Source: an uncultured Bacillales bacterium
GTDB lineage: Bacteria; Bacillota_I; Bacilli_A; RF39; UBA660
Direction of reading: 5' to 3'
DNA length: 64,000 nt
Assembly: GCA_902477075.1 (NCBI GenBank)
Contig: CABSFU010000001.1
Location: forward strand, 94,555-158,554
Position numbers and translations under genes: made by a program. Numbering within the stretch: the stretch's first letter is position 1; the number at the start of each line of letters is the position of its first letter. Of this stretch, positions 9,100 to 60,062 are shown in pieces. The notes under the pieces were generated by a model, which made no database searches, was not told the origin of the DNA, and saw nothing but the letters and a program-made list of their open reading frames with translations.

Positions 9100-9318
9100 G
9101 TACGTAAAAATGTTGAAGGAAAGAAAAATATCTTCTTTTTGTAGAGACTTTGTGGTTGGTGTAAACAAAGAAAAGAAATATTGTAAATGGTTCTGGAGTT
9201 GCCTATGTGATATTTAGCTTAGGCCGTAATCTTGCGTTAAAAGTTTGAGATAAAAACAATGTTTTTAAATAAGGTGGTACCGCGATAAATTCGCCCTTAT
9301 AAGGTACTTTTTTTTGTT
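9100..9318 (+). promoter_or_regulatory. T-box riboswitch leader (probably Met-specific) ahead of metG
   Basis: Stem-I AGAGA motif at ~9143; canonical T-box sequence AAGGTGGTACCGCG at 9269-9284; downstream hairpin and U8 run 9310-9317 immediately 5' of the metG RBS. Confidence 0.65.
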
Positions 9319-9334
9319 GTTTAAGGAGGATTTT

Positions 9335-12834: not shown

Positions 12835-13620
12835 ATGGGTAAAGTAATAGCTTTAGTAAATCAAAAAGGTGGGGTAGGAAAAACAACATCTAGTATTAAT
12901 CTAGCTGCTTCTTTAGGATACCTAAAAAAAAGAGTATTATTAGTGGATCTTGATCCACAAGGAAATGCTACAACTGGTGTAGGAATTGAAAAATCTGATT
13001 ATGATAAAAGTATGTATGAACTTTTAAAAGGAGATGCCGAAATCGGCGACGTCATTATCAAAACGAAATTTAAAAATTTATATATTATTCCAGCTACAAT
13101 TAATTTAGCTGGTGTTGATTTTGAATTGATAGAAAAACATAACCAAGATTCTACCTTTGTAAAGGGTAGTCAATTAAAAAAACATTTAGATGAAGTAAAA
13201 GATCAATTTGACTATATCATTATTGATTGCCCACCATCCTTAGGTGTTTTAACAACAAATGCTTTAACAGCAGCAAATTCTGTTATTATTCCAATTCAAT
13301 GTGAATTCTTTGCTTTGGAAGGGGTTATGCAGTTATTAAATACGATTATTTTAGCACAAAAAAATATCAATCCAACATTAGGAATAGAAGGCGTTTTACT
13401 TACTATGTTAGATTGCAGAACTAATTTAGGATTAGAAGTAGTGGAAGATATTAAAAGTTATTTTAAAGAAAGTGTTTATGATACTATTATTCCAAGACTT
13501 ATTAAATTAGCAGAAGCACCAAGTCATGGAAAACCAATTATAGCTTATGCACCAGATCATATAGGAGCAGAAGCTTATCTTAATTTAGCAAAGGAAGTGA
13601 TTGCAAGAAATGGAAACTAA
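12835..13620 (+). CDS. parA: chromosome partitioning ATPase ParA/Soj
   Basis: Deviant Walker A NQKGGVGKTT. Confidence 0.85.
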   Translation: MGKVIALVNQKGGVGKTTSSINLAASLGYLKKRVLLVDLDPQGNATTGVGIEKSDYDKSMYELLKGDAEIGDVIIKTKFKNLYIIPATINLAGVDFELIEKHNQDSTFVKGSQLKKHLDEVKDQFDYIIIDCPPSLGVLTTNALTAANSVIIPIQCEFFALEGVMQLLNTIILAQKNINPTLGIEGVLLTMLDCRTNLGLEVVEDIKSYFKESVYDTIIPRLIKLAEAPSHGKPIIAYAPDHIGAEAYLNLAKEVIARNGN

Positions 13621-14491
13621 AAAAAGAGCACTAGGTAGAGGTTTAGAAGAATTATTTAACAATGAAAATTTAGATTTAAATAGTTTTGAAAAACAAGTTT
13701 ATGAAACTGCAACACATGAGGAAATTATTGAAATTTCCCTAAAAGAATTAAGACCAAATCCATATCAACCTAGAAAAGTATTTGATGAGGAAGCTTTAAA
13801 AGAATTGGCTTCTTCTATTAAAGAACATGGCGTTTTTCAACCAATTATTGTAAAAAGAAGTATTAAGGGTTATGAAATTATAGCAGGTGAAAGAAGGTAC
13901 CGTGCTTCTCAATTAGCCGGAAAAGAAACTATTCCAGCTATTGTGCGTGAATTAACAGATGAAACAATGATGGAAATTGCCCTACTAGAAAATTTACAAA
14001 GAGAAAATTTAACTGCTATAGAAGAAGCATATGCTTATAAAAATATGTTAGAAAAATTGGGCTTAACACAAGAAGAATTAGCTACTAAAGTGGGAAAAAG
14101 TAGAAGTCATATTACTAATATTTTAGGGTTAATTCGTCTACCAAAAGAAGTTCAATCAATGATTGCAAAACAAGAAATATCTATGGGACATGCCAGAATT
14201 TTGAGTAAATTAAATGATGAAGGAAAAATAAAAGATTTAGCAAATCGTATTACCAATGAAAAGTTGTCGGTTCGTGAGGTAGAAGAGTTATCTAACGAAA
14301 ATCATTTAGAAAGAAAAGTTAAGATAGAACGTAAACCAAAAGAATCTACACAAGATTATAAATATGTAGAAGAAATATTAAGAGATAAGTTGGATACAAA
14401 GGTAAAAATTAAAGATAAAAAGATAGAAATATCATTCACTAGCATAGCAGATTTAAATCGAATAATTGAAATAATCAACGAAAGAAATTAG
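13610..14491 (+). CDS. parB: chromosome partitioning protein ParB/Spo0J
   Basis: GERRYRA ParB box and HTH; overlaps the parA stop. Confidence 0.85.
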   Translation: METKKRALGRGLEELFNNENLDLNSFEKQVYETATHEEIIEISLKELRPNPYQPRKVFDEEALKELASSIKEHGVFQPIIVKRSIKGYEIIAGERRYRASQLAGKETIPAIVRELTDETMMEIALLENLQRENLTAIEEAYAYKNMLEKLGLTQEELATKVGKSRSHITNILGLIRLPKEVQSMIAKQEISMGHARILSKLNDEGKIKDLANRITNEKLSVREVEELSNENHLERKVKIERKPKESTQDYKYVEEILRDKLDTKVKIKDKKIEISFTSIADLNRIIEIINERN

Positions 14492-14499
14492 GTGAGGAT

Positions 14500-15291
14500 A
14501 TGCTTGAAAAAATTTTGTCAAAAGAGGTTATAGCGCCAATTGTGATAGCTGTTAGCTTTTTTGTTATCTATAAAATTCTTAGTAGAATTGTGAAAAAGAT
14601 TGCCGCTATTAAAATGGGACATGTAAATGATAAACGAAAAAAAACAATCATTAGTTTAATTAATAATATTATTAAATACACTTTTTTACTTTTAGCCATT
14701 TTAATGATATTAAATATTTACAGTATTAATACCAGCGCTATTGTTGCATCTTTTGGGGCTGTTAGTTTAGTGGCAGGACTTGCTTTACAAGATACTTTAA
14801 AAGATTTTTTATCAGGTCTTTCTATTATTTTTGAAAATCAATATGCGATAGGAGACACAGTAACGATAGGTGGTTTTAAAGGAGAAGTCATCTCATTAGG
14901 ATTAAAATCTACCAGAATTAAAGCTTATACAGGAGAAGTTAAAATTATTTCTAACAGAAATATTTGTGAAGTAATCAATCATACGATTGCCTTTTCCTTA
15001 GCACAAGTAGATGTTCAGGTTTCTTATGAAGATGATATAAAGAAAGTAAAAAAGGTTTTAGATGAACTATGTATTAGATTAAGCAAAGAATTACCAGACT
15101 TAAAAGAAGATATTAAGTGCTTAGGTATTAATTCACTAGATGAATCTGGTATTACGTTTAGAGTAGAAGCTAAAACAAACCCCTTAAAACATTATGGAAT
15201 CGAAAGAATACTATATAAAGAAATTAAATTAGAACTGGATAAGAATGGAATTACAATTCCATATCAACAGGTGGTGATTAGAAATGCCTGA
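14500..15291 (+). CDS. small-conductance mechanosensitive channel (MscS family)
   Basis: TM3 plus beta-domain signature ...GLALQDTLKDFLSG...IGD.V.IGG..G.V. Confidence 0.75.
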   Translation: MLEKILSKEVIAPIVIAVSFFVIYKILSRIVKKIAAIKMGHVNDKRKKTIISLINNIIKYTFLLLAILMILNIYSINTSAIVASFGAVSLVAGLALQDTLKDFLSGLSIIFENQYAIGDTVTIGGFKGEVISLGLKSTRIKAYTGEVKIISNRNICEVINHTIAFSLAQVDVQVSYEDDIKKVKKVLDELCIRLSKELPDLKEDIKCLGINSLDESGITFRVEAKTNPLKHYGIERILYKEIKLELDKNGITIPYQQVVIRNA

Positions 15292-29519: not shown

Positions 29520-31319
29520 ATGAGTAATTTACAACTTCCGTTATGTTCTGTTTTATTAAGCTTGATATTATTAATTTTATATTATTCAAAAGATAATATA
29601 AACAATACGGAAACTAAGATTTTTGGTAATATTTTAATGACACAATTTATTGGCTCATTAGCTGAATTTATTATTTATCTTTTGGCATATGTTTTTTACA
29701 ATGAACTAATTATAATATTTCTAAATAATATAGTATGTATATCATATTGTATATGGTCTTTTCTATTTTGTATATATATCTATTATATATCTCTTGATAA
29801 TACAAAAGGGTATATCAATAGTATTAAAAAAGCTATGATTGCTAATGTTATTGTATTTATATTAATTATAATTTCACCTATTGTATTGATTAATGAAGAT
29901 GGTATGATGTATTCATCTGGTTTAAAACCAACAATAACATATATATATTGTTTAATTTGGTTTGTTCTAGCTATTATAGTTTGGTTCTGTAATATTAAAA
30001 ATTTTAAAAATATAAAATATGCTCCTTTATATTTCTTTTATGGTGTAGCAGTATTAATATTTATAATAAGAGTGGTAGATCCAAGTATATTAATAATATC
30101 GTTAGCACTAACTCTTATTAATTTAGTAATGTATCATACAATAGAAAACCCAGATATTAAAATGTTAAGAGAATTCCATAAACAAAGAGAATTAGCGAAT
30201 GAATCTAATCAAGAAAAAACATCATTCTTATTTAATATGTCTAATCAAATTAAAGAACCAATTTTAGCCATTTCAAATATCAGTGGAGAAGCATTACTGG
30301 AAGATAATATGGAAGAAGTAAAAGAAGATTTAAGAAGAATAAAATCTTCATCAAATGAATTATTACAATTAGTAAATGATGTATTAGATATTTCAGATAT
30401 AGAAAAAAGGAAAATAGGTATTAGAGAAGTTAAATATAATGTTTATCATTTATTTGAAGTATTAAATAAAAACTTTAGTAAAAATGTAAGTAAAAAAATA
30501 GAATATCGTTTTCATTTTGATAAAAGTATTCCAGAATATTTATATGGAGATTCTATCCGTATTAAACAAGTAATGAATATTTTATTAGAAAATGCTTTGG
30601 AATATACCAACGAAGGATTTATAGAAGTAAATGTTAATTATGTTATAAAACATGATGTATGTAGATTAATTATTACAGTAGAAGATTCAGGACTAGGAAT
30701 GAGTGTTGATGAAATAAAACATTTATTTGATAAAGAAAAAATATATAGTGATGAATTATTAAAAGAAGTAGATGATACTAAAAATAATTTAGGTGTATTA
30801 AAATCAATTATTAATTTAATGAATGGTAATATACTAGTAAATAGTGAAATAGGAAAAGGAAGTAAATTTACTATTATAATTGATCAAAAAATAAAAGAAG
30901 AAAAAACAAAAATAATTGAAACAGTAGAACAATATGAAGAGATGTATGAAAATAAAGAAAAAATATTGTTAGTAATCAATCATAAAGAACTTAGCAAAAA
31001 AATAAATAAGATGTTTAAAAAAGATACTTATGAAATAGAAGAAGTAACTGGTGGACAAGCTTGTTTAGAAAAAATAAGAAAAAATGAAAAATTTGATTTA
31101 ATTATAATGGAAGAAGATTTAGAAAAATTAAGTAGTGAAGATACCTTAATAAAATTAAAAGATACATCTGGTTATAAAATACCAGTAATCTTAATTAGCA
31201 ATAACAAAGGATTTGGAGCTAAAGAAATGTATCAAGAAAAAGGATTTAAAGATGTATTATTTTTACCACTTAAAAAAGAAGAAGTTTTAAAACAAGTAGA
31301 AGAATATATTAAAGATTAA
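29520..31319 (+). CDS. membrane-bound hybrid histidine-kinase-like protein (6 TM + HisKA-like + HATPase_c + REC-like) with both phospho-acceptor residues substituted
   Basis: The H-box reads FLFNMSNQIKEP, so His is replaced by Asn. N, G1 (DSGLGM) and G2 (GKGSKF) boxes are present. The receiver reads LLVINH...FDLIIMEED, so the acidic pair DD is replaced by IN and the phospho-Asp by Glu. Confidence 0.55.
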   Translation: MSNLQLPLCSVLLSLILLILYYSKDNINNTETKIFGNILMTQFIGSLAEFIIYLLAYVFYNELIIIFLNNIVCISYCIWSFLFCIYIYYISLDNTKGYINSIKKAMIANVIVFILIIISPIVLINEDGMMYSSGLKPTITYIYCLIWFVLAIIVWFCNIKNFKNIKYAPLYFFYGVAVLIFIIRVVDPSILIISLALTLINLVMYHTIENPDIKMLREFHKQRELANESNQEKTSFLFNMSNQIKEPILAISNISGEALLEDNMEEVKEDLRRIKSSSNELLQLVNDVLDISDIEKRKIGIREVKYNVYHLFEVLNKNFSKNVSKKIEYRFHFDKSIPEYLYGDSIRIKQVMNILLENALEYTNEGFIEVNVNYVIKHDVCRLIITVEDSGLGMSVDEIKHLFDKEKIYSDELLKEVDDTKNNLGVLKSIINLMNGNILVNSEIGKGSKFTIIIDQKIKEEKTKIIETVEQYEEMYENKEKILLVINHKELSKKINKMFKKDTYEIEEVTGGQACLEKIRKNEKFDLIIMEEDLEKLSSEDTLIKLKDTSGYKIPVILISNNKGFGAKEMYQEKGFKDVLFLPLKKEEVLKQVEEYIKD

Positions 31320-50668: not shown

Positions 50669-50895
50669 CCCTTTTATTTTCTCATATAAAACTGAAATAT
50701 AATATAGATTAATAGTCTATACTATTTTCCACTCTAGTAGTAGTATGTTCTTTTTGTGTAAATATTTACATATATTATTGTAAGTCATTTAAAAATGTGA
50801 TAAAGTATACTTGATTTGTTAGTTATTTTGTTCCTTTCCTAATTGAAAAGATAAGATAAGTTTAATGAAATCAATAATTGGAAAGGAGTTTATTT

Positions 50896-51081
50896 ATGCA
50901 AGACGAAAAAATTATTTGCAAAGATTGTGGTAAAGAATTTATTTTTACTGTTAGAGATCAAGAATTTTATGCTGAAAAAGGTTTCCAAAATAAACCAGTT
51001 AGATGCAAAGAATGTAGACAAGCAAAAAAAGATAGAATTGAAAATTCAAGAAAATCTTTTAATGATGCTAGAAATAATTAA
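50896..51081 (+). CDS. small zinc-ribbon protein (CxxC...CxxC)
   Basis: RBS GGAAAGGAG; CKDCGK...CKEC motifs. Confidence 0.4.
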   Translation: MQDEKIICKDCGKEFIFTVRDQEFYAEKGFQNKPVRCKECRQAKKDRIENSRKSFNDARNN

Positions 51082-51110
51082 AAACTCTTATTTTTTAAGA
51101 GTTTTTTTGT
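51082..51110. terminator. bidirectional rho-independent terminator
   Basis: AAAACTCTTATTTTTTAAGAGTTTTTTT between convergent genes. Confidence 0.6.
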
Positions 51111-51476
51111 ATTTTATTTTCTAAGTAGTAGTTTCTCAATTCTTTAAATCTTTGGTAATGAATAATTTCTCTTTGTCTTAAAAAAGATAATGGAGCTAAA
51201 ACAGATATATCATTAGTCAAATCCATTAAATGTTCATAAGTAGCGCGAGCTCTTTGTTCTGCGGCCATATCACTTTCAATATCTGCTATAAAGTCACCAC
51301 TTGTTTCAATGTAAGACGTTGTAAAAGGCACTCCCATAGCATCAGCAGGGAATAAGGCAGTATCATGTTCAGCAAATATGCCACCTAAACCAGCTTGTTT
51401 CATTTCTTCTATTGTTGCTCCTTTTGTTAATTGATAAATCATGGCACCAATCATTTCTAAATGAGCTAATTCATTT
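51095..51476 (-). pseudogene. cotJC: 3' two-thirds of a cotJC-like manganese-catalase-family spore coat gene, truncated at its 5' end by prophage insertion
   Basis: ...ELAHLEMIGAMIYQLTKGAT...FLRQREIIH aligns with CotJC residues ~75-189. Its open frame runs into the attachment junction, where it meets a stop 15 nt from the stop codon of the serine recombinase gene. Confidence 0.6.
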
Positions 51477-51494
51477 TTACAAGTATGTTATCAG

Positions 51495-53654
51495 TTAAAA
51501 AGACAACAATATAATCTTGAGAGAAAAATTCTCTTTTAAGTATCGACCGCCTTTTTCTTTCTTATAAATTACTTGTTTTATTATAGTTGATAATAAAGCG
51601 TTTTTTTCTTCTGCGGTCATATCTTTTGAATATTTACTTATAACATCTTCTAAAATTGGTATAGCTTTCTTTTTACTATATAAATCTTTAGTTCTATCTT
51701 TTGACTTAGATAGTTCTGTTTTTTGATTTAATAATGTTTCTAATTGTTCATTTAAAGTATTAGTTCTTTTAATAAATAAATCTTGAGTATATGCTCCAGT
51801 CTCTACTAATTCGCAAGCCTTTTCTATTTGGCTTTTTATTTTATCTATTTCGTGATCTATTGCTTCTATCATTTCCTTATTAGTACATATTTCTTTTTTT
51901 ACTGCTTCTTCATAATTATTAACATAGTTTTTATATTCACTCATTATTATTTTAAGAGATTTTAATATTTTATCTTCTACAAGTTCTAATTCACTTGATA
52001 CACACTTACATCTAGGTCTACTACACATTAAAGTATCTGTATGTGGTGGAGTTATGCTTTCTTCTATTGTAGTTATAGCTTTATCAAACTCGTTTGTTTC
52101 TATATTCAATAGTTTTTTTAGATCCTCCCATTTATCAGCGTGTGGTATACAAAATTTCTCGTCGTTAGAACTAAACCAATGATCCACAGAGTTTTTAGAA
52201 ACGTGTAGAGCTCTAGCTATGTCATTAAGACTATAATTTCCTTTATGTTCCCTTAATAATAATCGTAATTTAGGCTTATCTATATCATAAATACGTTTAG
52301 CGGTAGGCTTAGCGTCTTTTCTTAAATAATATGGACGTCTAGTCATATTATTACCACAATAGCCACATACAACCAAACCTAATAAAGGGTTTTTCATTTC
52401 TTTATTATCTGGCACTGTTTTAAGTCTGTTAGATAAAAATTTAGCTTCTATCTGTTGTTTTATATCTTCGCCGAGTATTGCTTCGTGTTTACCTCTAACA
52501 AGCGTAAAATCGTCATTATTAGGGTTTTTCTTAACAATATGTCCATTTACTAGTGTCTTAGTAGTTTTACGTCTGTCCCACGTCAAATAGCCGTATATAG
52601 TGTAACCCTGTAATATATTTCTAACCATATTAGCGGTCCACTCTTTAGACTTTCTAGGTTTTATTTTAAGATAATTAAGATAGTGTGCTATATTAGTAGC
52701 TCTCATATCATTTAATATAATCTTAATATTTTCTCCTGGTTTAAAAAAGTTATGAGGTATATGTATATTGTTTATATCTATATTATAGCTAGCTGCTATA
52801 CTTTCCAATGTATCATTTTCTTTTATTTTATATGGTAATGATTTACTATTAACTGTTAATCTTATTTCTTGATCTACTTTTAAATCTAAATTACAAGTGA
52901 TTATATCTTTCTTATGTGTTCCAAACAATTTAGCTATATCTGATATAATCTCGTTTTCTTTAACAGTGTAAGTAGTATTTAGTCCGTTTAAGAATAAATC
53001 AGCTAATAATTTTACTACTTTAGACTCTGACTCATTTTCTACTAAAACATAACCTTTCTCGTTAGGTATTTTCTGTTTATTATAACCGTATGGCAATACA
53101 GAACCAACGTATTTACCGTCTTTAACACTTCTTAATCTACCACGAGCTAATATACGTTTAGTATATTTTAAATATTTTCTAGCTTGATATAAACCGTCTT
53201 CAAAATAAGATAAATCGTCCTCGTTATCTAAATTATATATTTTCATAGGAGTTATTATCTTTGTGTTGGAATATTGAAAAGCTTGAGCTATTATTCCCTG
53301 GTCCATAGTATTACCACGAGCTAGACGTTCTATTTCAATACATACAACTCCTTTTACACGATCTTCTTCTATTAAAGATAATACTTCTTGAATTATTGGA
53401 CGATCTTCGATAGTATCTCCAGACGCTACCTCTCTATAAATATTATGCTCTGGTATTGGCTTACCGAAAATACTTACAATAAAGTCTTGTAATTCTTTTT
53501 CGTGTCTTTGTAAAGTCTTTTCTATAGACTCGTCTTTATAATAGTCCATATCTTTACGTGATTTTCTTAAATATATTATAAACATATCTAGTATCTCGTC
53601 GACAGTAAGGTCCCTAGATACGTTCATTATTTGTAAAAATGTATCTAAATTCAT
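51495..53654 (-). CDS. large serine recombinase (phage integrase)
   Basis: YLRKSRKD catalytic Ser region, recombinase domain, CGYCG...C zinc ribbon and C-terminal coiled coil; 719 aa. Confidence 0.85.
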   Translation of the reverse strand: MNLDTFLQIMNVSRDLTVDEILDMFIIYLRKSRKDMDYYKDESIEKTLQRHEKELQDFIVSIFGKPIPEHNIYREVASGDTIEDRPIIQEVLSLIEEDRVKGVVCIEIERLARGNTMDQGIIAQAFQYSNTKIITPMKIYNLDNEDDLSYFEDGLYQARKYLKYTKRILARGRLRSVKDGKYVGSVLPYGYNKQKIPNEKGYVLVENESESKVVKLLADLFLNGLNTTYTVKENEIISDIAKLFGTHKKDIITCNLDLKVDQEIRLTVNSKSLPYKIKENDTLESIAASYNIDINNIHIPHNFFKPGENIKIILNDMRATNIAHYLNYLKIKPRKSKEWTANMVRNILQGYTIYGYLTWDRRKTTKTLVNGHIVKKNPNNDDFTLVRGKHEAILGEDIKQQIEAKFLSNRLKTVPDNKEMKNPLLGLVVCGYCGNNMTRRPYYLRKDAKPTAKRIYDIDKPKLRLLLREHKGNYSLNDIARALHVSKNSVDHWFSSNDEKFCIPHADKWEDLKKLLNIETNEFDKAITTIEESITPPHTDTLMCSRPRCKCVSSELELVEDKILKSLKIIMSEYKNYVNNYEEAVKKEICTNKEMIEAIDHEIDKIKSQIEKACELVETGAYTQDLFIKRTNTLNEQLETLLNQKTELSKSKDRTKDLYSKKKAIPILEDVISKYSKDMTAEEKNALLSTIIKQVIYKKEKGGRYLKENFSLKIILLSF

Positions 53655-53775
53655 TATAGCACTTTCTTTCTTTATAATTTTATGCTATAATCGTATAGAA
53701 AAGCCTATACAATTATAGTTGGTTGTTTCTTCTATTTTGTTTTAAGTGTGATAGCTTTTAGGGTTTTTCATTTCA

Positions 53776-53810
53776 ACGCTTCGTGTTCGCGCACGAGGCG
53801 TCTTTTTTTT
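53776..53810 (+). terminator. GC-rich hairpin plus T8 (terminator-like) between int and the repressor
   Basis: ACGCTTCGTG-ttcgcg-CACGAGGCGT followed by TTTTTTTT. Confidence 0.4.
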
Positions 53811-54037
53811 ATGCTTTTTTACCTTTCGAGCAAGAAAACGTACATTTCGAGCAATGTTAATCACAATTAACGGTAAAAAATGGTAAAATGTTGTATTAAA
53901 ATTTATAATATACCCCTAAGGAGGGGGTTAGTATGAAAACTAAATATGATGTGTTATATGAAAAACTGCTTAATGATCATATTAACATCAGTTTATTTAT
54001 TAAACTACTTGAGTATATCAAATAAGATATACTCTTT

Positions 54038-54406
54038 TTATTTGTCCTCTTTATCAATTATAAATTCTTTGTTTTTTTCTATAAATTTCATAAGCTTATC
54101 AAAATTTTCTTCTGATAAATCTTCGCCGTCAAAAAGATTATTTTCTTTTAAAGCGTCTTTCAATTTACTTTTGATATTTTTGGTAGCTTTTTTTTCTTCC
54201 CAGTCAAGCATATAGTTAGCGTCTACTCCTAATACTTTACATAAAAGCATTATGCTATCTGCGTCTGGTTTATGATTTCCACTTTCCCAGTCGCTAATAG
54301 TGTTATGAGATACGCCTAATTGCTTGGCAAGCTCTTTTTGTGTCATATTTTTATTTTTTCTTGAGTTCCTTATATTATCACATAAAGCCATATTAGTTAC
54401 CTCCAT
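54038..54406 (-). CDS. cI-like phage repressor (XRE HTH)
   Basis: MTQKELAKQLGVSHNTISDWE HTH; divergent from the cro-like gene. Confidence 0.7.
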   Translation of the reverse strand: MEVTNMALCDNIRNSRKNKNMTQKELAKQLGVSHNTISDWESGNHKPDADSIMLLCKVLGVDANYMLDWEEKKATKNIKSKLKDALKENNLFDGEDLSEENFDKLMKFIEKNKEFIIDKEDK

Positions 54407-54560
54407 TTCATTAAAATTTTATCACAAAAAATATGTATAGTAAATAAATAATTTCGAAAAAATCGAAAAAATTAGCGTTTTTGTATTGACATTTCGATAA
54501 TACCGAATTACAATGTATATAGAGTTCGACAATATCGAAGTCTTGGAAGGAGGAAATTAA
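54407..54560. promoter_or_regulatory. phage immunity switch region: three palindromic operators (54453-54467, 54493-54507, 54525-54539) with a rightward sigma-A-like promoter (-35 TTGACA 54486-54491, -10 TACAAT 54509-54514)
   Basis: TTCGAaaaaaTCGAA, TTCGAtaataCCGAA and TTCGAcaataTCGAA; the middle operator fills the 17-bp promoter spacer. Confidence 0.55.
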
Positions 54561-54818
54561 ATGTCAAACCCTAAATCACTAGAAGTAGGAAAAAAGATAA
54601 AGTTACTTTTGGTAGAACATAATATCAACCAAAATCAAGTAGCAAGATACCTAAATGTTAGTGATTCTTTATTTTCTGATAAGTTAAATGGAAAAGTAAA
54701 GATTACTGTAGACGAATTTTACGATATTATTACTTATCTAAATGAAGAATTTAACATTACTGTAGACGCTAATTACTTTATGCCACAAACACCAAACGAA
54801 ACATCAGACACTAACTAA
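54561..54818 (+). CDS. Cro-like XRE-family regulator
   Basis: INQNQVARYLNVSDSLFSD HTH; RBS GGAAGGAGG. Confidence 0.55.
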   Translation: MSNPKSLEVGKKIKLLLVEHNINQNQVARYLNVSDSLFSDKLNGKVKITVDEFYDIITYLNEEFNITVDANYFMPQTPNETSDTN

Positions 54819-54842
54819 CATAAAATTTAATGAGGTGTTGAA

Positions 54843-55085
54843 ATGGAAAAAAACGAAAGCTATCACACAATAAAAAACTTAACACTAGGTCAAACAGAAA
54901 TTGAGATATGTATAGAGAGTATTCCAACAATAGAAGAAAAAAGAAATCATTTAATAAAAATATATGACGTCGTAAATGATATAGCTAGAAAAGCTGAAAA
55001 ACGCGGCGTTGATACTTCTAAATGGTTTTATACAGAAAAACAATTAAAGCTCTTAAAACAAGATCCAATAAATGAATTTATCTAG
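54843..55085 (+). CDS. phage hypothetical protein
   Basis: ORF in the early operon. Confidence 0.3.
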   Translation: MEKNESYHTIKNLTLGQTEIEICIESIPTIEEKRNHLIKIYDVVNDIARKAEKRGVDTSKWFYTEKQLKLLKQDPINEFI

Positions 55086-55462
55086 TAAATCAATTTAAAA
55101 AAACAAAGGAGAAACAATTATGAAAAAAAAATACAGGCTTAAAAAATGGGTAAAAGTAACCCTAAATATATTATGCGCAATAAGCGTATTTATAATACTT
55201 GCTTTATTAGTGAAGAAAGGAGTTAATGACTTTGAAGATTTGGCTAAGCAATGTGATAAGGAATATGGCTATACTTGTACTTATTACGATATTAGACAAT
55301 ACTCTTTAGGTAAATAAATTATGTATGTTAAAGAAAATAAAAAAAGATTTATGAATTGGATCAGAACTCATAAATCAAGTTGTAAACTTTCTTATAATTT
55401 ACTCTCTAATTGTACCATAATTTGGGGGTAAAAGTCAAAAAATGGACGATTGGAGGTAAAAC

Positions 55463-56131
55463 ATGAAAGATAGTTATATAATGCACTGCGATTACGGAAA
55501 TCATTTTGAATTATTAACAGACGCTGAATTAGGTCGGCTTATAAGAGATGTAAATAACTATGTTAAAAATGGTGTTTTGCCTCAATATACAAAAGAGGAT
55601 CGTGTTCTAAATATGGCCTTTAGTTTTATGAAAACTAACATTGATATAGAAACAGAAAAATATATAAAAAAATGTGAAAAAAATCGAGAAAATGGCCGTC
55701 GTGGTGGTCGACCTAGAAACCCAGAAAAACCGAACGGTTTTGAAGAAAACCCACAAGAAACGAAAAAAGCCGATACTGATACTGAAACTGATACTGATAC
55801 TGAAACTGATACTGATACTGAAACTGATACTGAAACAAACATAAAAAAAAGTGTGTGTGATAAAAGCGCACGCGCAAAAGAATTTTATTGTCATTTAGGA
55901 AGTGATTATAAATCGGAGTCATGTTTCTACTGCATGAAAAAACAGATATGTCCTAATAAGGAGTCTACGGAGTTTAGATTAAACCACCGAAACGAAACTT
56001 TCGACGAGTGGAATAAAAGACACGAAGATTATCGGGAACAACTTATTGAGGACTTAAAGTCCAGGGGGAAGGATCCAGATATAGAGCTTATCGACTATGA
56101 CTGGTTAAATGAAGATAATGATATAGATTAG
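55463..56131 (+). CDS. phage early protein with an internal acidic (TDTE)n repeat; possible replication-module protein
   Basis: Contains an 18-bp tandem repeat; basic RRGGRPRN stretch; C-terminal Cys cluster. Confidence 0.35.
   Translation: MKDSYIMHCDYGNHFELLTDAELGRLIRDVNNYVKNGVLPQYTKEDRVLNMAFSFMKTNIDIETEKYIKKCEKNRENGRRGGRPRNPEKPNGFEENPQETKKADTDTETDTDTETDTDTETDTETNIKKSVCDKSARAKEFYCHLGSDYKSESCFYCMKKQICPNKESTEFRLNHRNETFDEWNKRHEDYREQLIEDLKSRGKDPDIELIDYDWLNEDNDID
55782..55847 (+). repeat. tandem repeat, 18-bp unit GATACTGATACTGAAACT x3.7
   Basis: Direct reading of the sequence. Confidence 0.8.
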
Positions 56132-56151
56132 AAAATGGAGGAATAATTATT

Positions 56152-56427
56152 ATGAAAAATACTATAACAAAACAAGATATAGATAACATTTTAAAAGATA
56201 CACTAATTAAAGTTGAACAATACGGAGATAAAACAACCGTTTTAAAAGCTACATTGCCTAATGACTTTGTAATTGTTGAGAGTTCTAGCTGCGTAGATCC
56301 TGCAAACTTCGATATGAAAATTGGAGAAGAAATATGTATGGACAAGCTAGTTAATAAAATTTGGGAACTTGAAGGCTATAAACTTCAATGTCAAACTAAG
56401 GAGGTAGCAGAAAATGGAAATAACTAG
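56152..56427 (+). CDS. phage hypothetical protein
   Basis: ORF with RBS GGAGGAATAATTATTATG. Confidence 0.35.
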   Translation: MKNTITKQDIDNILKDTLIKVEQYGDKTTVLKATLPNDFVIVESSSCVDPANFDMKIGEEICMDKLVNKIWELEGYKLQCQTKEVAENGNN

Positions 56428-56668
56428 CGTTAAAGTAAAAAAAATAAATGAAGAAAACTCTCGTTTAGTTGGAGCTGCTTCTGTAGTTGTTGATAAAGAA
56501 TTTATTATCAAAGATATAAAAATTATTAAAGGAGACGACCGTCTATTCCTGGCTATGCCTAGTCAAAAAATGCCAGACGGCTCATACGCAGATTTAGCAC
56601 ACCCTCTTAATGTTGAGTGTCGCAAAAAATTTGAAGATATTATTTTAGCAGAATATGATAAGTGCTAA
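56414..56668 (+). CDS. spoVG: SpoVG-family protein (phage-encoded)
   Basis: MEITSVKVKKINEE...FLAMPSQKMPDGSYADLAHPLN closely parallels SpoVG (MEVTDVRLRRV...[22 protein letters not shown]). Confidence 0.7.
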   Translation: MEITSVKVKKINEENSRLVGAASVVVDKEFIIKDIKIIKGDDRLFLAMPSQKMPDGSYADLAHPLNVECRKKFEDIILAEYDKC

Positions 56669-57200
56669 TGAATTATGGAAGTCAATAGAATATGATACTC
56701 GTTATCAAGTATCAAACTATGGACGTTTTAGAAAGAAAAACCCTAAAAATGGTTATAGATATTTAAAACCTTTTAGAAAACATAATCTATTTTTAGTAAA
56801 GATTAAAGATAAAGATTTTAACTGTGCTCGATTAGTCGCTAATGCTTTTATTAAGCAATTAGCTTCTAATGATAGAGTCTATCATAAAAATAAAATAGAA
56901 TTTGATAATTACTATAAAAATTTAGAAGTTATATCTTTAAAAGAGCTTGGTAAACGAACTGGCTATATATCAAAATCTAAACGAGTTGTAGAAGTTAAAA
57001 ACGGCGAGATTATAAGAGACTGGCCTTCAAGTAGAAAAGCCGCTAAAGACTTATATATTTCTTATCAGACCGTTTCCGACTACTGCAATAATAAGGTAGA
57101 AAGCCCTATGTTTAATCTTATGTGGGAAGACGATTATTTTGACGAAGTATTAGAGCCGTTTAAATGGGAACATAAAAAAAGAAAGGAAAAAAAGAAATGA
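56655..57200 (+). CDS. NUMOD4-motif/HNH-type homing-endonuclease-like protein
   Basis: WKSIEYDTRYQVSNYGRFR NUMOD4 signature. Confidence 0.55.
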   Translation: MISANELWKSIEYDTRYQVSNYGRFRKKNPKNGYRYLKPFRKHNLFLVKIKDKDFNCARLVANAFIKQLASNDRVYHKNKIEFDNYYKNLEVISLKELGKRTGYISKSKRVVEVKNGEIIRDWPSSRKAAKDLYISYQTVSDYCNNKVESPMFNLMWEDDYFDEVLEPFKWEHKKRKEKKK

Positions 57201-57559
57201 AAACTAAAATCAAAAACACAATAAAAGACATCATTGATTATACGCTAACAAATGAATTTAAAGCTTTAGTAATGATTATGTTATTTATGTTCTTATGTGT
57301 TTCCCTATTCTGGGGTGCTATATGTACAGTAATGACTAATGACATTACAGAAGTAGCTACAGAGCAAAAAGAAGAAAATATAAAACTTCAAGCAGAATAT
57401 GACAAGTTATCTCAAGAGTACGCTCGTATGAAAATGGCTTATGAGGAAACTTACGAACTATTTACTACTTGTCAAGAGTCTACATCTTGGTATGAACAAT
57501 TTTATTATGACAATGTAGATCCAACAACTGGAGAAATTGAGGGGGAATATTATGAGTAG
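57197..57559 (+). CDS. phage membrane/coiled-coil protein, hypothetical
   Basis: One TM segment followed by a coiled coil. Confidence 0.3.
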   Translation: MKTKIKNTIKDIIDYTLTNEFKALVMIMLFMFLCVSLFWGAICTVMTNDITEVATEQKEENIKLQAEYDKLSQEYARMKMAYEETYELFTTCQESTSWYEQFYYDNVDPTTGEIEGEYYE

Positions 57560-57893
57560 TATTATTTGTTTATTATTAGGTTTAATATTAGGCTCTGGTT
57601 TATGTTATCTTGCCTTTAATCAAGTATTAACTTCTAAAGACGATATTATAGACGATTATAAAAAAGGTATAGAAATACATAATCAAAGAGAATTAAAACT
57701 TATATATATAAATCAGTCTACTAAAGACTATGTAAAACAACAACAAGATATTCTTAAAACTGTACCTATTAAGGTAAAAGAAATTACAGACGAAGCTAGT
57801 TTACAAGCTGGTAGATATATGGCTTTAAAAGATATAGAAAAAACTATTATTCAATTAGAAAAGAACTCCGAAAGCTTAGTAAATAAAAAATAA
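57537..57893 (+). CDS. phage membrane protein, hypothetical
   Basis: N-terminal TM segment. Confidence 0.3.
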   Translation: MRGNIMSSIICLLLGLILGSGLCYLAFNQVLTSKDDIIDDYKKGIEIHNQRELKLIYINQSTKDYVKQQQDILKTVPIKVKEITDEASLQAGRYMALKDIEKTIIQLEKNSESLVNKK

Positions 57894-57904
57894 GGAGTGA
57901 TGTT

Positions 57905-58534
57905 ATGCCTAGAGTGTTTAGAAACAAGTTCGGTCGTAAAACTGTTAGACCTTTCAAAAAGCAAGATCTAAATAGTATGATCGTAATTTGTAAGAAAAAT
58001 AAAAACGCAGCCGAAGAAGAAGAAAACAAAGAACAAGTTTATTTATGGGATCGTAACTATATGATACTACACCTAGGTAGAAATCTAGCTTTTCGTATAG
58101 AGGATCTATTACAGTTGAAAACTGATAATTTTAAAAATGGAGGTATTTATACAAGAGAGTTCAAAACTGGTAAAGAACAAGCTTTTGAACTCCACCCTTC
58201 ATTGAGAAAAGATTTAGAAGATTATATAAATAGAAATAAGCTTGTTGAAGGAGAATATTTATTTAAAAGTCGTAAAGGTACTAATATACCTATTACACGT
58301 CAAAGAGCTTGGCAGATTATTAAAGAATTATCAGACGAAGTTAAAGTATCTTATGTTGTAGGCTGCCACTCCTTACGTAAGTATTTTGCTAGAGAGTATT
58401 ACGAACAGACTGGAGATTTAATCGGTTTAAAAGAAATGTTAAATCACTCTAGCGAAACAGTAACATTAAGGTATATATGCTGGGAAGAAGACGACAAAAA
58501 CATCAAGCGAAAGAACTTTTATTTAGGAGGTTAA
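57905..58534 (+). CDS. short tyrosine-recombinase catalytic-domain protein (phage integrase family, no N-terminal core-binding domain)
   Basis: LGRNLAFRIEDL (Arg I), GCHSLRKYFA (H-x-x-R) and LNHSSETVTLRYI (terminal Tyr) motifs; RBS AAGGAGTGA. Confidence 0.5.
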   Translation: MPRVFRNKFGRKTVRPFKKQDLNSMIVICKKNKNAAEEEENKEQVYLWDRNYMILHLGRNLAFRIEDLLQLKTDNFKNGGIYTREFKTGKEQAFELHPSLRKDLEDYINRNKLVEGEYLFKSRKGTNIPITRQRAWQIIKELSDEVKVSYVVGCHSLRKYFAREYYEQTGDLIGLKEMLNHSSETVTLRYICWEEDDKNIKRKNFYLGG

Positions 58535-58536
58535 TT

Positions 58537-59082
58537 ATGCAAGTAGTTAATTTTAATCAAAAACAATGGCGTCAAGATTTTGCCGCATACGTTAAAGATA
58601 AATTGGACTGGTCCTCCGCTAGAGTAACAAAACCAGAAGTTATCAAAAAAGGTTATTATGATAATTCTTTGGGAGAACGCCTTTCCTCATTAAAAGAATT
58701 TAGAGTTATTAACGGAACTGGTGGCGAAGTTAGAATACAATACTATCACAACAATATTGTTGGCGAAGACGGTATGACTTATACTGATCGTGATTTTGAA
58801 CTAGTTTACAATTATTTAAAAGAAGCAGAAAAAGAGCCATTATGGTTATTGATGAGTGATTTCTTTTATAAAAATAAATGCAACTCTGGTTTAATAAGTG
58901 AAGATAAAGACTACTACGCTTTTAGAAAAAGGAAAAAACTTTATAGAGTCTATAGAAAAGACAACGATAAATTTAAGTTAGAAATTGAAGAAGTACATTT
59001 ATTTGAGTATGTAGATTTAAAAGTAATAGATAACTTAAATAGTATTGAAGAAGTAGAAAATACAATATTACAGTATTTTTAA
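58537..59082 (+). CDS. phage hypothetical protein, paralog A (VNFNQKQWRQDF motif)
   Basis: RBS AGGAGG; N-terminal ~60 aa shared with 60285-60623. Confidence 0.4.
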   Translation: MQVVNFNQKQWRQDFAAYVKDKLDWSSARVTKPEVIKKGYYDNSLGERLSSLKEFRVINGTGGEVRIQYYHNNIVGEDGMTYTDRDFELVYNYLKEAEKEPLWLLMSDFFYKNKCNSGLISEDKDYYAFRKRKKLYRVYRKDNDKFKLEIEEVHLFEYVDLKVIDNLNSIEEVENTILQYF

Positions 59083-59264
59083 AAAACTAATAACAATTTT
59101 ACATAATGAAAATATGTAAATTGATATAAAAAATAACACTTTCCTGATGTCGGGAAAATGCTTATAAAATCTGGGTAAAACTACTCTTTTATAGGGTGGC
59201 TAGTGAATTTAACAGAATTATGTCATTTTGTAAAATTCAATATATAGGAAATGAGGTGCTAGAA

Positions 59265-59561
59265 ATGCTTGTATTACCAATAAAAAAGAAATGGTTTGAC
59301 ATGATACTTAGTGGAGAAAAAAAAGAAGAATATCGAGAAATAAAACCATATTATGATAGTCGCTTAAATAAAAAAGTAAATTTTTGTGAAAGTACAGGTT
59401 ATGGTTATTATATTCTTTTAAGAAATGGTTACTCAAAAAATAGTCCTACTCTAAAAGTTGGTTGTGTAATAAAAAAAGATTATGGTAACCCTGCTTGGGG
59501 AGCAATACCAGGTCAACTATATTATGTTTTAAAAATATTAAGTGTTGAGGTGGTTAAATGA
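59265..59561 (+). CDS. ASCH-domain (PUA-like) protein
   Basis: GEKKEEYR matches the ASCH GxKxxExR motif; RBS GAGGTG. Confidence 0.45.
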   Translation: MLVLPIKKKWFDMILSGEKKEEYREIKPYYDSRLNKKVNFCESTGYGYYILLRNGYSKNSPTLKVGCVIKKDYGNPAWGAIPGQLYYVLKILSVEVVK

Positions 59562-59834
59562 AAGCTTTTATAAAAAAAGAAAAATGGGAAGAATTTAAAA
59601 AAGATTATGTAAAATATGGTTTCTCACTTGCTGTTTTCCCAGATAAATTTTATACAAAACCAATAGATAGATTTTTAGTAATACTTATAAGCCGAAAAAC
59701 TAGAGAAATTAAACTTAGAACACCATACGGAGAGAGTCCATTTATGGAAGTTCAAGGAAATTATTTCGAAGATCTAATAATTAATAATTTTGTTGAATAT
59801 AAAAAAGGTATATTTGATTAAGGAAGGTGTCGAA

Positions 59835-60062
59835 ATGGCTAAATTAAAAGATAAAATAGTTGGTTATATTTCTCCTAAACAAAGAAAAATAAATACACTA
59901 GAAAATAAAGTCTCTACTCTTGAAGGAGTAATAAAAGACGAATTATATAATCTATTTATCGAAAAGCTGGGAGAACCAGCAGAAATGAAACGTCTAAAAA
60001 AAGACAATAAAAGATTAAGGCAACAAAATAAGTCTTTAAAAGAAATAATTAAAAATAGTTAA
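59835..60062 (+). CDS. phage coiled-coil small protein
   Basis: RBS AAGGAAGGTG. Confidence 0.3.
   Translation: MAKLKDKIVGYISPKQRKINTLENKVSTLEGVIKDELYNLFIEKLGEPAEMKRLKKDNKRLRQQNKSLKEIIKNS

What the first reader, a model, noticed from the sequence alone, without database searches (positions are those of the whole stretch)
51095..53654. Prophage inserted inside a cotJC-like (Mn-catalase family) spore-coat gene by a large serine recombinase
The minus-strand ORF at 51095-51476 matches only CotJC residues ~75-189 (ELAHLEMI...FLRQREIIH). Its frame stays open up to the junction and stops 15 nt from the stop codon of the 719-aa serine recombinase gene, so int sits directly at attL. The organism is a spore-former: spoIID, spoIIID and spoVT are present. 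This mirrors the skin/SPbeta-type intervening elements that split sporulation genes and excise in the mother cell. The 5' part of cotJC should lie beyond attR, outside this window.
Basis: partly seen in the sequence, partly recalled or inferred. Interest (0 to 1): 0.7.

Follow-up and report, generated by a model that had tools for sequence, protein, structure and literature searches.

The report
Phage splitting spore-coat gene cotJC
A working 30-kb gut phage has inserted itself, using a large serine recombinase, into one codon of the spore-coat gene cotJC of an uncultured small-genome Bacilli bacterium; this is a known kind of event, but the same site turns out to be a very widely used phage landing pad.

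Summary
Window 51095-51472(-) encodes only residues 65-190 of a 190-aa CotJC/Mn-catalase. It abuts the 3' end of a 719-aa SprA-like large serine recombinase, followed by a CI/Cro switch, early genes and a terminase.

All four att forms were recovered from related sequences:
- attB: intact, syntenic cotJB-cotJC-zfTbcl-HTH-bipA loci.
- attP: integrase joined to endolysin in more than 10 assemblies.
- attR: the 65-aa N-fragment ending ...GTEE+LTQ*, next to cotJB, in more than 15 contigs.
- attL: the junction in the window.

The crossover is the GA of codon Glu65 (GAA), the metal-ligand EExxH motif. The prophage is about 30.1 kb. The window's own attR, expected near +30 kb, could not be fetched.

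The same phage (98-100% nt identity) sits in hosts whose cotJC is only 65-71% identical. Most of the 160 IMG/VR contigs examined carry cotJC halves broken at this site or at a second one (QYGG|PD). A 76%-identical relative is inserted in the opposite orientation.

Mother-cell-specific excision, as in skin or SPbeta, remains untested. No directionality factor and no host-type sporulation promoter were found in the phage. cotJC was already cited as an intervening-element target. Verdict: a new member of a known kind.

The parts
51095..51472 (-). 3' fragment of cotJC (codons 65-190 plus stop), a Mn-catalase-family spore-coat gene
   Evidence: Pfam PF05067 E 6e-29. 90% identity to residues 65-190 of intact P0001.
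51471..51472 (-). Crossover dinucleotide GA (TC on the + strand), the first two bases of codon Glu65
   Evidence: attL junctions have phage ...AAAAAT-GA-A followed by variable host sequence. attR junctions have variable host ...GAR-GA-A followed by phage TTGACACAA. attP is dyad-symmetric around GA.
51447..51500 (-). attL (approximate extent): host B' arm at 51447-51470, the GA core, and phage P arm at 51473-51500, which overlaps the integrase stop codon
   Evidence: Alignment of attL, attB and attP.
51495..53654 (-). 719-aa large serine recombinase (integrase), SprA-like, with two roughly 90-aa insertions
   Evidence: Pfam Resolvase, Recombinase, Zn_ribbon_recom and LysM. PHROG integrase. PDB SprA 9dxh E 4e-37.
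53655..54037 (.). Intergenic region between repressor and integrase, with a bidirectional hairpin after cI (54011-54034) and a GC-rich hairpin (53776-53801)
54038..54406 (-). CI-like repressor (HTH_3)
   Evidence: Pfam and PHROG hits.
54561..54818 (+). Cro-like regulator, divergent from cI
   Evidence: PHROG transcriptional repressor. sigma-70-like promoter 54486-54514, 11 of 12 matches.
54843..62420 (+). Early and middle phage genes: SpoVG homolog 56414-56668, HNH/NUMOD4 56655-57200, Tyr-recombinase-like 57905-58534, ArpU-like late regulator 61399-61947, HNH 62091-62420
62677..63063 (+). 128-aa protein directly upstream of the large terminase (position of a small terminase)
   Evidence: phrog_1066. 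Followed by TerL on identical contigs. Listed in 6513 index blocks of the assembly collection.
63063..64000 (+). 5' part of the large terminase, which runs off the window; the rest of the prophage and attR lie outside
   Evidence: TerL_ATPase on L002 (100% identical to the window) and on L118-L121.
48582..51081 (.). Host flank bipA (48582-50417 +), HTH (50435-50668 -) and zf_Tbcl (50878-51081 +), syntenic with the empty sites

Best explanation
The window holds the left end of an intact, currently active temperate siphovirus-like phage of about 30.1 kb. The phage integrated into the host's cotJB-cotJC spore-coat operon.

Its SprA-like large serine recombinase recombined phage attP with an attB inside cotJC. 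attP is a dyad-symmetric site that overlaps the integrase stop codon. The crossover is the GA dinucleotide of codon Glu65 (GAA), within the invariant metal-ligand motif EExxH. This leaves a 65-aa N-terminal stub (+LTQ*) next to cotJB at attR, and the 125-aa C-terminal part next to the integrase at attL (the window).

Integrase plus an unidentified directionality factor can reverse the reaction exactly, restoring the reading frame without a scar.

Shown: attL, attP, attB and attR sequences; the crossover position; completeness of the phage; the free attP form; recurrence in many hosts.

Inferred: the site is favoured because its DNA is almost invariant among CotJC-bearing Firmicutes, which would give a broad host range. 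It is also favoured because the gene is dispensable in vegetative cells, so insertion would cost little.

Open: whether excision is also triggered in the sporulating mother cell to rebuild cotJC. I put this at about one in three.
For: - Truncated CotJC and the integrase domains.
- Identical integrase plus a CotJC C-fragment on 18 contigs, with at least 5 different host alleles that are 49-61% identical in protein to the window's fragment.
- Empty syntenic sites with intact cotJB-cotJC-zfTbcl-HTH-bipA.
- attP, with the integrase directly followed by the endolysin: L096, L284 plus 9 similar places, L290 plus 7 similar places, and L295.
- attR exactly as predicted from attL+attP+attB.
- The crossover is confined to GAA.
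- Prophage size is about 30.1 kb from overlapping loci, and L302's contig is 30,121 bp ending at att.
- Both gene halves on one contig, 30.4 kb apart, for a phage whose integrase is 62% identical. Joining them in silico gives a gap-free 192-aa CotJC.
- The phage is 98.4-100% identical beside host fragments that are 65-71% identical.
- 93 of the 120 listed N-terminal hits break at codon 65, with 45 different tails.
- Of 160 IMG/VR loci, only 3 have an intact gene. The breakpoints cluster at residues ~62-68 and ~31-35.
Against: - The attR of the window's own genome was not retrieved. None of the sampled N-fragments is close enough to P0001 (best 52 of 65 residues) to belong to this host.
- No directionality factor was identified: no PHROG excisionase and no SprB-like ORF.
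- The broad-host-range and low-cost rationale is inference.
- The host has never been shown to sporulate. Only sporulation genes are seen (PMC10868615).
Confidence: 0.88

Rival explanations
1. Developmental switch. The prophage behaves like SPbeta, skin or phiS63: integrase plus a directionality factor are expressed from a sporulation sigma-factor promoter in the mother cell. The element excises there, cotJC is rebuilt and expressed from its own promoter, and the forespore keeps the prophage.
For: - The target is a coat gene preceded in these hosts by a conserved CYATAC-N14-17-CATAnnnTA motif. From my own knowledge this resembles mother-cell sigma-E/K promoters.
- The integrase's closest solved relative is SprA, the SPbeta enzyme that rebuilds spsM.
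- Every intervening element in a sporulation gene that was tested experimentally in the papers read here excised during sporulation (PMC5595907, PMC5499854, PMC3442830, PMC10747680).
- All C- and N-fragments seen keep intact reading frames.
- The phage carries a SpoVG homolog.
Against: - The host cotJB-type promoter motif is absent from the phage: 0 strict hits against 0.2 expected, and loose hits at chance level.
- No directionality factor was found.
- A related phage uses the same site in the opposite orientation, so nothing depends on orientation.
- The phage is recent and mobile (98-100% identical across hosts), so intact fragments do not prove selection.
- cotCB/cotD mutants of C. difficile lose catalase activity but show no significant defect in coat formation (PMC11222575), so pressure to rebuild the gene may be weak.
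Confidence: 0.33
2. Plain safe-harbour integration. cotJC is simply inactivated in lysogens. Excision happens only on ordinary prophage induction and has no link to sporulation.
For: - The attB core lies in the most conserved stretch of the gene (E64, E65, H68 and E70 are invariant), which suits a phage that infects divergent hosts.
- Many unrelated attP arms and two hot spots use the gene.
- Both orientations occur.
- No sporulation-type promoter and no directionality factor are evident.
- The free attP form is common in stool assemblies, as expected for ordinary induction.
Against: - Targeting genes used only in the mother cell is the hallmark of the developmentally excised elements (PMC5595907).
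- The negative promoter scan uses a crude motif in a genome of about 27% G+C.
Confidence: 0.52
3. Decayed gene remnant or assembly chimera. The CotJC piece is a pseudogene fragment that merely lies next to a prophage, or the junction is a mis-join.
For: Only one half of the gene is visible in the window.
Against: - The junction is base-identical in 18 independent contigs.
- The complementary half sits at the other prophage end.
- attP and attB are recovered, and the four sites obey the exchange rule around GA.
- The fragment has no frameshift or internal stop.
Confidence: 0.01

Closest known systems
SPbeta prophage of Bacillus subtilis (SprA integrase and SprB directionality factor, splitting spsM)
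   Same: - An active temperate phage with a large serine recombinase gene next to the att site.
- It splits a spore-envelope gene expressed in the mother cell.
- SprA is the best solved relative of this integrase (E 4e-37).
- Excision would be scarless.
   Different: - SPbeta is about 134 kb, against about 30 kb here.
- The target gene differs (spsM, not cotJC).
- SprB with its sporulation promoter is known (PMC5499854); here no directionality factor or such promoter was found.
- This integrase has two extra ~90-aa insertions, one LysM-like and one HTH-like.
- The host is an uncultured small-genome gut Bacilli.
skin element (SpoIVCA, sigK) and the functional sigK-intervening phage phiS63 of Clostridium perfringens
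   Same: - A serine recombinase-bearing element inside a sporulation gene.
- The phiS63 integrase is among the tblastn hits (37% identity over the catalytic domain).
- phiS63 is a fully functional phage of about 34 kb (PMC3442830).
   Different: - sigK is essential for sporulation, so excision is obligatory.
- cotJC is a coat component whose loss is mild in the organisms tested.
- skin of B. subtilis is defective, whereas this phage is active.
cotJC-interrupting elements noted by Abe et al. 2013 (as cited in bioRxiv 10.1101/2021.11.22.469490)
   Same: The target gene is the same. [quoted passage not shown]
   Different: - The original paper is not held in the library, so species, site and recombinase cannot be compared.
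- The cited examples are said not to be from the Subtilis clade.
- Nothing suggests they concern uncultured gut Bacilli or the two hot spots and prevalence found here.
Listeria phage A118 / phi10403S in comK (active lysogeny)
   Same: A large serine recombinase phage splits a host gene and can restore it by precise excision. A118 integrase is a serine recombinase (PMC3556126).
   Different: comK is not a sporulation gene. The link between excision and phagosome escape is stated from my own knowledge and was not tested here.
gin (gerE, B. cereus) and yin (yabG, C. botulinum) intervening elements
   Same: These elements interrupt genes of late mother-cell expression (PMC5595907, PMC10747680). 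gin carries serine recombinase genes; the recombinase of yin was not checked here.
   Different: gin has no phage genes and yin is described as prophage-like. This element is a complete, mobile phage found free as attP.

Membership tests
Large serine recombinase (phage integrase) | N-terminal resolvase catalytic domain with the conserved Ser motif | tested here: met
   Pfam Resolvase E 1e-7. YLRKSRKD aligns to SprA YLRRSRQD.
Large serine recombinase (phage integrase) | Recombinase domain, zinc-ribbon domain and C-terminal coiled coil | tested here: met
   Pfam Recombinase E 7e-11. Zn_ribbon_recom is below its cutoff (20.9 vs 25.3 bits). Three collinear blocks align to SprA residues 15-208, 210-338 and 347-511.
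Large serine recombinase (phage integrase) | Short att sites with imperfect dyad symmetry, minimal attP/attB identity and a 2-bp crossover | tested here: met
   Shared identity is only GAA. The attP arms match at 15 of 26 positions around GA, counted by eye on the sequence. An AACTGATA motif lies 5 bp further from the centre in attP than in several attB left arms, which fits the architecture reviewed in PMC3783163.
Large serine recombinase (phage integrase) | Catalyses attP x attB recombination, and needs a directionality factor for attL x attR | not testable with these tools
   Only the products (attL, attR) and substrates (attP, attB) are seen in assemblies. No directionality factor was recognised.
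Sporulation gene-intervening element (skin/SPbeta type) | Inserted within the coding sequence of a sporulation gene | tested here: met
   Codon 65 of cotJC in a cotJB-cotJC operon.
Sporulation gene-intervening element (skin/SPbeta type) | Carries its own site-specific recombinase at the junction | tested here: met
   The integrase stop codon is 22 nt from the crossover.
Sporulation gene-intervening element (skin/SPbeta type) | Excision restores an intact, in-frame gene | tested here: met
   In silico only. attR-left plus attL-right equals attB of the intact alleles. The joined halves from one contig give a gap-free 192-aa CotJC.
Sporulation gene-intervening element (skin/SPbeta type) | Excision is sporulation- and mother-cell-specific | not testable with these tools
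   This needs junction PCR or read counts in sporulating versus vegetative cells.
Sporulation gene-intervening element (skin/SPbeta type) | Recombinase or directionality factor under a sporulation sigma-factor promoter | tested here: inconclusive
   The host cotJB promoter motif has 0 strict matches in the phage, and loose matches are at chance level. The motif is crude and the directionality factor is unknown.
CotJC / Mn-catalase family | Mn_catalase fold with EExxH and downstream ligands, about 190 aa, encoded directly after cotJB | tested here: met
   Pfam and NCBIfam hits. Intact homologs are 185-190 aa and follow CotJB. E64, E65, H68 and E70 are invariant. For the window itself only residues 65-190 are present.
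Temperate tailed phage (Caudoviricetes) | Lysogeny switch, terminase, portal, capsid, tail and lysis genes, and a free attP form | tested here: met

The most novel reading that the evidence does not exclude
cotJC could be a general phage regulatory switch locus of gut spore-formers. A family of large serine recombinase phages, including this highly prevalent one that lysogenises hosts of different genera with one nearly identical genome (perhaps helped by its tail-fibre DGR), would occupy two invariant codon clusters of cotJC and excise in the mother cell. Spore-coat catalase would then be made only after phage departure. This would also give the first handle on sporulation in the never-cultured small-genome Bacilli (RF39, RFN20 or ML615J-28 type).
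Probability: 0.25. Interest if true: 0.7.

Novelty: new member of a known kind. Interest (0 to 1): 0.48.

Why it matters
Prophages that split sporulation genes and leave during sporulation are a classic case of a mobile element wired into host development. This example matters for four reasons.

- It extends the phenomenon to uncultured, genome-reduced gut Bacilli, whose ability to sporulate is only predicted from genes.
- It defines all four att sites and the exact crossover, which makes the integrase usable as a tool and directly testable.
- It shows that cotJC, at two invariant codon clusters, is one of the commonest prophage landing sites in IMG/VR and stool assemblies.
- One phage genome is found nearly unchanged in hosts whose target gene differs by about a third. 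That makes it a candidate for studying cross-species host range of temperate gut phages.

If excision proves to be sporulation-coupled, ratios of attB to attL/attR junctions in metagenomes could report on sporulation of unculturable bacteria in situ.

Tried and rejected
- megablast of the phage part against GenBank phages found no match. The integrase is below 42% identical to any isolated phage protein.
- A search for attR in IMG/VR with the exact phage arm returned only the attP contig.
- The search for related loci with single P0001 in viral contigs found nothing. A narrow alignment gave only one locus. Broader alignments were needed.
- The GTDB genome scan returned 80 loci, all with essentially full-length cotJC matches. 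The closest are about 78% nt identical to the window flank, so the window's species representative with a split gene was not among them.
- I tried to find the window host's own attR through N-fragment proteins and through exact endolysin variants. Many attR sites turned up, but none from this host.
- No SprB-like directionality factor was found. The query was the last CDS of phage Goe12, which I only assumed to be SprB; the best hit had E 0.08. No PHROG excisionase was found.
- The sporulation-promoter motif scan of the phage was at chance level.
- The sigma-70 scan of 50400-54900 was not enriched: 31 sites against 28 expected.
- Rfam found only a host T-box in the window and nothing in the phage.
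- The single-sequence AlphaFold model of the LysM-like insertion was unusable (pLDDT 42.6), so no fold search was run.
- Abe et al. 2013 is not held in the library.
- The decayed-remnant and chimera readings were rejected (see rival explanations).
Full report
**1. What is in the window**

The minus-strand frame at 51095-51478 reads **HTCKN-ELAHLEMIGAMIYQ...KIQKNS*. It matches Pfam Mn_catalase over profile positions 65-189 of 284, E 6e-29.

Database relatives are 185-190-aa proteins. The best, P0001, is 90% identical, and the match starts at its residue 65 (tblastn 51472-51098, E 5e-76). The window contains no N-terminal part of the gene and no cotJB.

The ORF 51495-53654(-) lies 22 nt upstream of the last homologous codon. 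It encodes a 719-aa protein with Resolvase, Recombinase and zinc-ribbon domains. Its closest solved relative is SprA/YokA of phage SPbeta, E 4e-37, aligned in three collinear blocks.

To the right lie the following genes:
- a CI-like repressor at 54038-54406(-);
- a divergent Cro-like gene at 54561-54818;
- about 20 small early genes, including a SpoVG homolog, two HNH genes, a 209-aa tyrosine-recombinase-like ORF and an ArpU-like regulator;
- a 128-aa protein in the small-terminase position;
- the start of TerL, which runs off the window.

The left flank is host DNA: bipA, an HTH gene and a zf_Tbcl gene. Further left are spoIID (NCBIfam equivalog above cutoff), a SpoIIQ-like gene, spoIIID, mreB and a SpoVT-like gene. 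G+C is about 27% throughout.

**2. Source and host**

The window is 100% identical to ENA contig ERZ1749120 NODE_21_length_101550. The nearest GTDB species representatives are titled 'uncultured Bacilli bacterium' (Hadza gut MAGs) and are only about 78% identical over the host flank. More distant CotJC-bearing relatives are titled 'uncultured Tenericutes', 'Mycoplasma sp. CAG:472' and similar, and include chromosomes of 1.2-1.5 Mb.

These look like the genome-reduced Bacilli orders discussed by Field et al., for which sporulation is predicted from gene content but never observed (PMC10868615). The assignment to an order is my inference.

**3. The four att sites**

- **attB.** Contigs carrying intact P0001 and P0003 show cotJB-cotJC-zfTbcl-HTH-bipA, the same order as the window's flank but with an uninterrupted 189-190-aa gene. 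In the DNA alignment the window follows these loci up to ...GAATTAGCTCAT and then diverges into phage sequence.
- **attP.** IMG/VR contig L096 carries the integrase (2 aa different) followed directly by ...CTTGTAAAAATGAATTGACACAATAAGTTTATC..., a terminator and a GH25-LysM endolysin, holins, tail genes and a DGR. The same integrase-endolysin junction occurs in L284 (plus 9 similar places), L290 (plus 7) and L295. The excised or virion form is therefore common.
- **attR.** From attL, attP and attB I predicted host ...GGTACAGAAGAA|TTGACACAATAAG..., giving an N-fragment that ends GTEE-LTQ*. Nine metagenome stretches hold the phage arm, and eight of them show exactly this junction with different host N-termini. 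Contigs found through the endolysin show endolysin, then a 68-aa Mn_catalase fragment, then CotJB and host genes.
- **attL.** This is the junction in the window.
- **Crossover.** In attL the bases after GAA vary with the host (TTA, CTT, CTA, ATA, ATT). In attR the bases before GAA vary (GAA or GAG). Exchange is therefore confined to GAA. attP is dyad-symmetric around GA: AAT-GA-ATT, ACAA/TTGT, TGATAA/TTATCA, with 15 of 26 positions matching when counted by eye on the sequence. The central dinucleotide is thus GA, at window 51471-51472 (TC on the + strand).
- **Target motif.** Glu64, Glu65, His68 and Glu70 are invariant in 21 CotJC sequences.
- **Site architecture.** An AACTGATA motif sits 5 bp further from the centre in attP than in several attB left arms. 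This is the geometry described for serine integrases (PMC3783163). That reading is an inference.

**4. Size and completeness**

Loci reached from the 128-aa gene run from the integrase to the tape-measure gene: TerL, portal, protease, capsid, connectors and tail. Loci reached from the endolysin run from the tape measure to attR. Together they give about 30.1 kb. Contig L302 is 30,121 bp long and ends at the att site.

The window's own attR should therefore lie near coordinate 81,600, outside the window. I could not fetch it. None of the sampled N-fragments is close enough to this host (best 52 of 65 residues identical to P0001).

For a relative whose integrase is 62% identical, both halves lie on one IMG/VR contig, 3300029215_000223: the C-fragment at 13-387 and the N-fragment at 30781-30984. 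Joining them gives a gap-free 192-aa CotJC. Contig k141_183991 (100,697 bp) should hold both ends of the present phage, but only its attR side could be read.

**5. How general is it**

- **Many hosts, one phage.** The identical 719-aa integrase abuts six distinct CotJC C-fragments; the other five are 49-61% identical in protein to the window's. On the attR side, the phage is 98.4-100% identical over 2.5 kb, while the adjoining host N-fragments are 65-71% identical in DNA. The neighbouring host genes also differ. Each of the 80 GTDB loci comes from a different assembly, so paralogs within one genome are an unlikely explanation.
- **Prevalence.** The 128-aa phage protein is listed in 6513 index blocks of the assembly collection, including contigs above 1 Mb.
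- **Protein-level breakpoints.** Of the 120 best cluster representatives matching the CotJC N-terminus, 93 stop at codon 65. They carry 45 different non-CotJC tails, so many different phage arms use this site.
- **IMG/VR.** 103 contigs match the CotJC N-terminal query and 249 match the C-terminal query. Of the 160 loci examined, only 3 carry an intact gene. Breakpoints cluster at residues ~62-68 and at a second site, ~31-35 (QYGG|PD). A serine recombinase lies within 3.5 kb of 31 of these junctions.
- **Opposite orientation.** A relative whose integrase is 76% identical (L114) is inserted the other way round, with the integrase next to the N-fragment. Its integrase-proximal arm aligns in register with ours, but the central dinucleotide reads GA toward the integrase instead of TC. 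From my own knowledge, a central dinucleotide is expected to be the sole polarity determinant in these enzymes. The same host context (ArgRS...HSP20-cotJB) also carries the present phage in the usual orientation.

**6. Does it excise during sporulation?**

This cannot be tested here.

In favour:
- The target operon is preceded by a conserved CYATAC-N14-17-CATAnnnTA motif in more than 15 genomes. This resembles mother-cell sigma-E/K promoters; the resemblance is my own knowledge.
- The integrase is SprA-like.
- Tested elements of this kind excise in sporulation (PMC5595907, PMC5499854, PMC3442830, PMC10747680).

Against, or neutral:
- The host promoter motif is absent from the phage, and looser versions occur at chance frequency.
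- No excisionase or directionality factor was recognised.
- Orientation is free.
- The phage is a recent, mobile invader of many hosts, so the intact reading frames of the fragments carry no information about selection.
- Loss of CotJC-type catalases has mild effects in C. difficile (PMC11222575).

My estimates are: sporulation-coupled excision about 0.33, plain safe-harbour integration about 0.52, and anything else negligible.

**7. Comparison with the known**

This kind of element is well described: prophage or prophage-like elements with serine recombinases that split sporulation genes. The text of bioRxiv 10.1101/2021.11.22.469490, citing Abe et al. 2013, already lists cotJC among genes frequently used for such integrations. 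The original paper is not held. Phage phi027 of C. difficile R20291 lies next to a CotJC homolog.

What is new here:
- the host clade;
- the complete att definition with a GA crossover in the metal-ligand codon;
- the two hot spots and their prevalence;
- the flipped-orientation relative;
- one phage genome spread over divergent hosts.

I file it as a new member of a known kind.

**8. Limits**

- All evidence beyond the window comes from other contigs.
- Counts from capped lists are lower bounds.
- Host taxonomy rests on record titles.
- Statements on function (coat catalase, sporulation) rest on homology.

Noticed in passing
window 52706-52972 (aa 228-316 of the integrase) and 52043-52312 (aa 448-537): Relative to SprA, the integrase has two insertions of about 90 aa each. 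One consists of two LysM-like repeats (Pfam LysM E 8e-9, above cutoff) between the catalytic/alphaE part and the recombinase domain. The other is an HTH-like segment inside the zinc-ribbon domain. From my own knowledge, a peptidoglycan-binding motif in a cytoplasmic recombinase is odd. The insertions are conserved in the 76%- and 62%-identical relatives (L114, L204).
   Followed up: partly
L096 13275-16145 (same phage, outside the window): The phage carries a diversity-generating retroelement. The reverse transcriptase is at 13275-14339(-), the template repeat at 14641-14747, and the variable repeat at 15038-15144, at the 3' end of a 372-aa tail gene. The differences fall mostly at template adenines. 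Two more diverged repeat copies lie at 14486-14592 and 14795-14901, spaced about 155 nt apart.
   Followed up: partly
window 56414-56668 (+): The phage encodes a full-length SpoVG homolog (Pfam E 4e-28). It is conserved in all relatives seen (L001-L005, L114, L118-L121). It might influence host septation or sporulation.
   Followed up: no
window 57905-58534 (+): A 209-aa ORF with a tyrosine-recombinase catalytic domain (Pfam E 3e-19, phrog_216) sits in the early operon of a phage that integrates with a serine recombinase. Its role is unknown; dimer resolution or a regulatory function are possibilities.
   Followed up: no
L101-L112, L282-L302 (attR sides); L001-L008 (attL sides): One phage genome (98.4-100% nt identity) is integrated in hosts whose cotJC fragments are only 65-71% identical in DNA and whose flanking genes differ. 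This implies an unusually broad host range for a temperate phage.
   Followed up: partly
L174/L265, L201/L279 and about 80 other IMG/VR loci: There is a second prophage integration hot spot in cotJC at the invariant QYGG|PD codons (residues ~31-33), mostly in higher-G+C hosts. It is at least as frequent in IMG/VR as the Glu65 site.
   Followed up: partly
L114 6001-8375 versus L300 11144-11856: The same host context carries two related phages at the same cotJC site in opposite orientations. Their integrase-proximal att arms are in register, but the central dinucleotide is inverted (GA versus TC).
   Followed up: partly
L011, L014, L016-L033, about 30-70 nt upstream of cotJB: A conserved CYATAC-N14-17-CATAnnnTA motif lies upstream of cotJB, resembling a mother-cell sigma-factor promoter. 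No cotJA ORF is evident, and a conserved tRNA-like sequence lies just upstream on the other strand in many genomes.
   Followed up: partly
window 53776-53801: A GC-rich 11-bp-stem hairpin (6 GC pairs) sits in the otherwise AT-rich spacer between the repressor and integrase genes. The T-run is on the + strand, where no gene is read. There is no Rfam match.
   Followed up: no
window 55760-55830 (within ORF 55463-56131): A Thr-Asp/Thr-Glu dipeptide repeat (TDTETDTDTETDTDTETDTE) occurs in the DUF6291-like early protein. Its length differs between phage copies (220-235 aa).
   Followed up: no
window 9104-9301 (+): A T-box leader (Rfam RF00230, 118 bits) lies upstream of the 524-aa ORF 9314-10888. 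This is an ordinary host feature.
   Followed up: no
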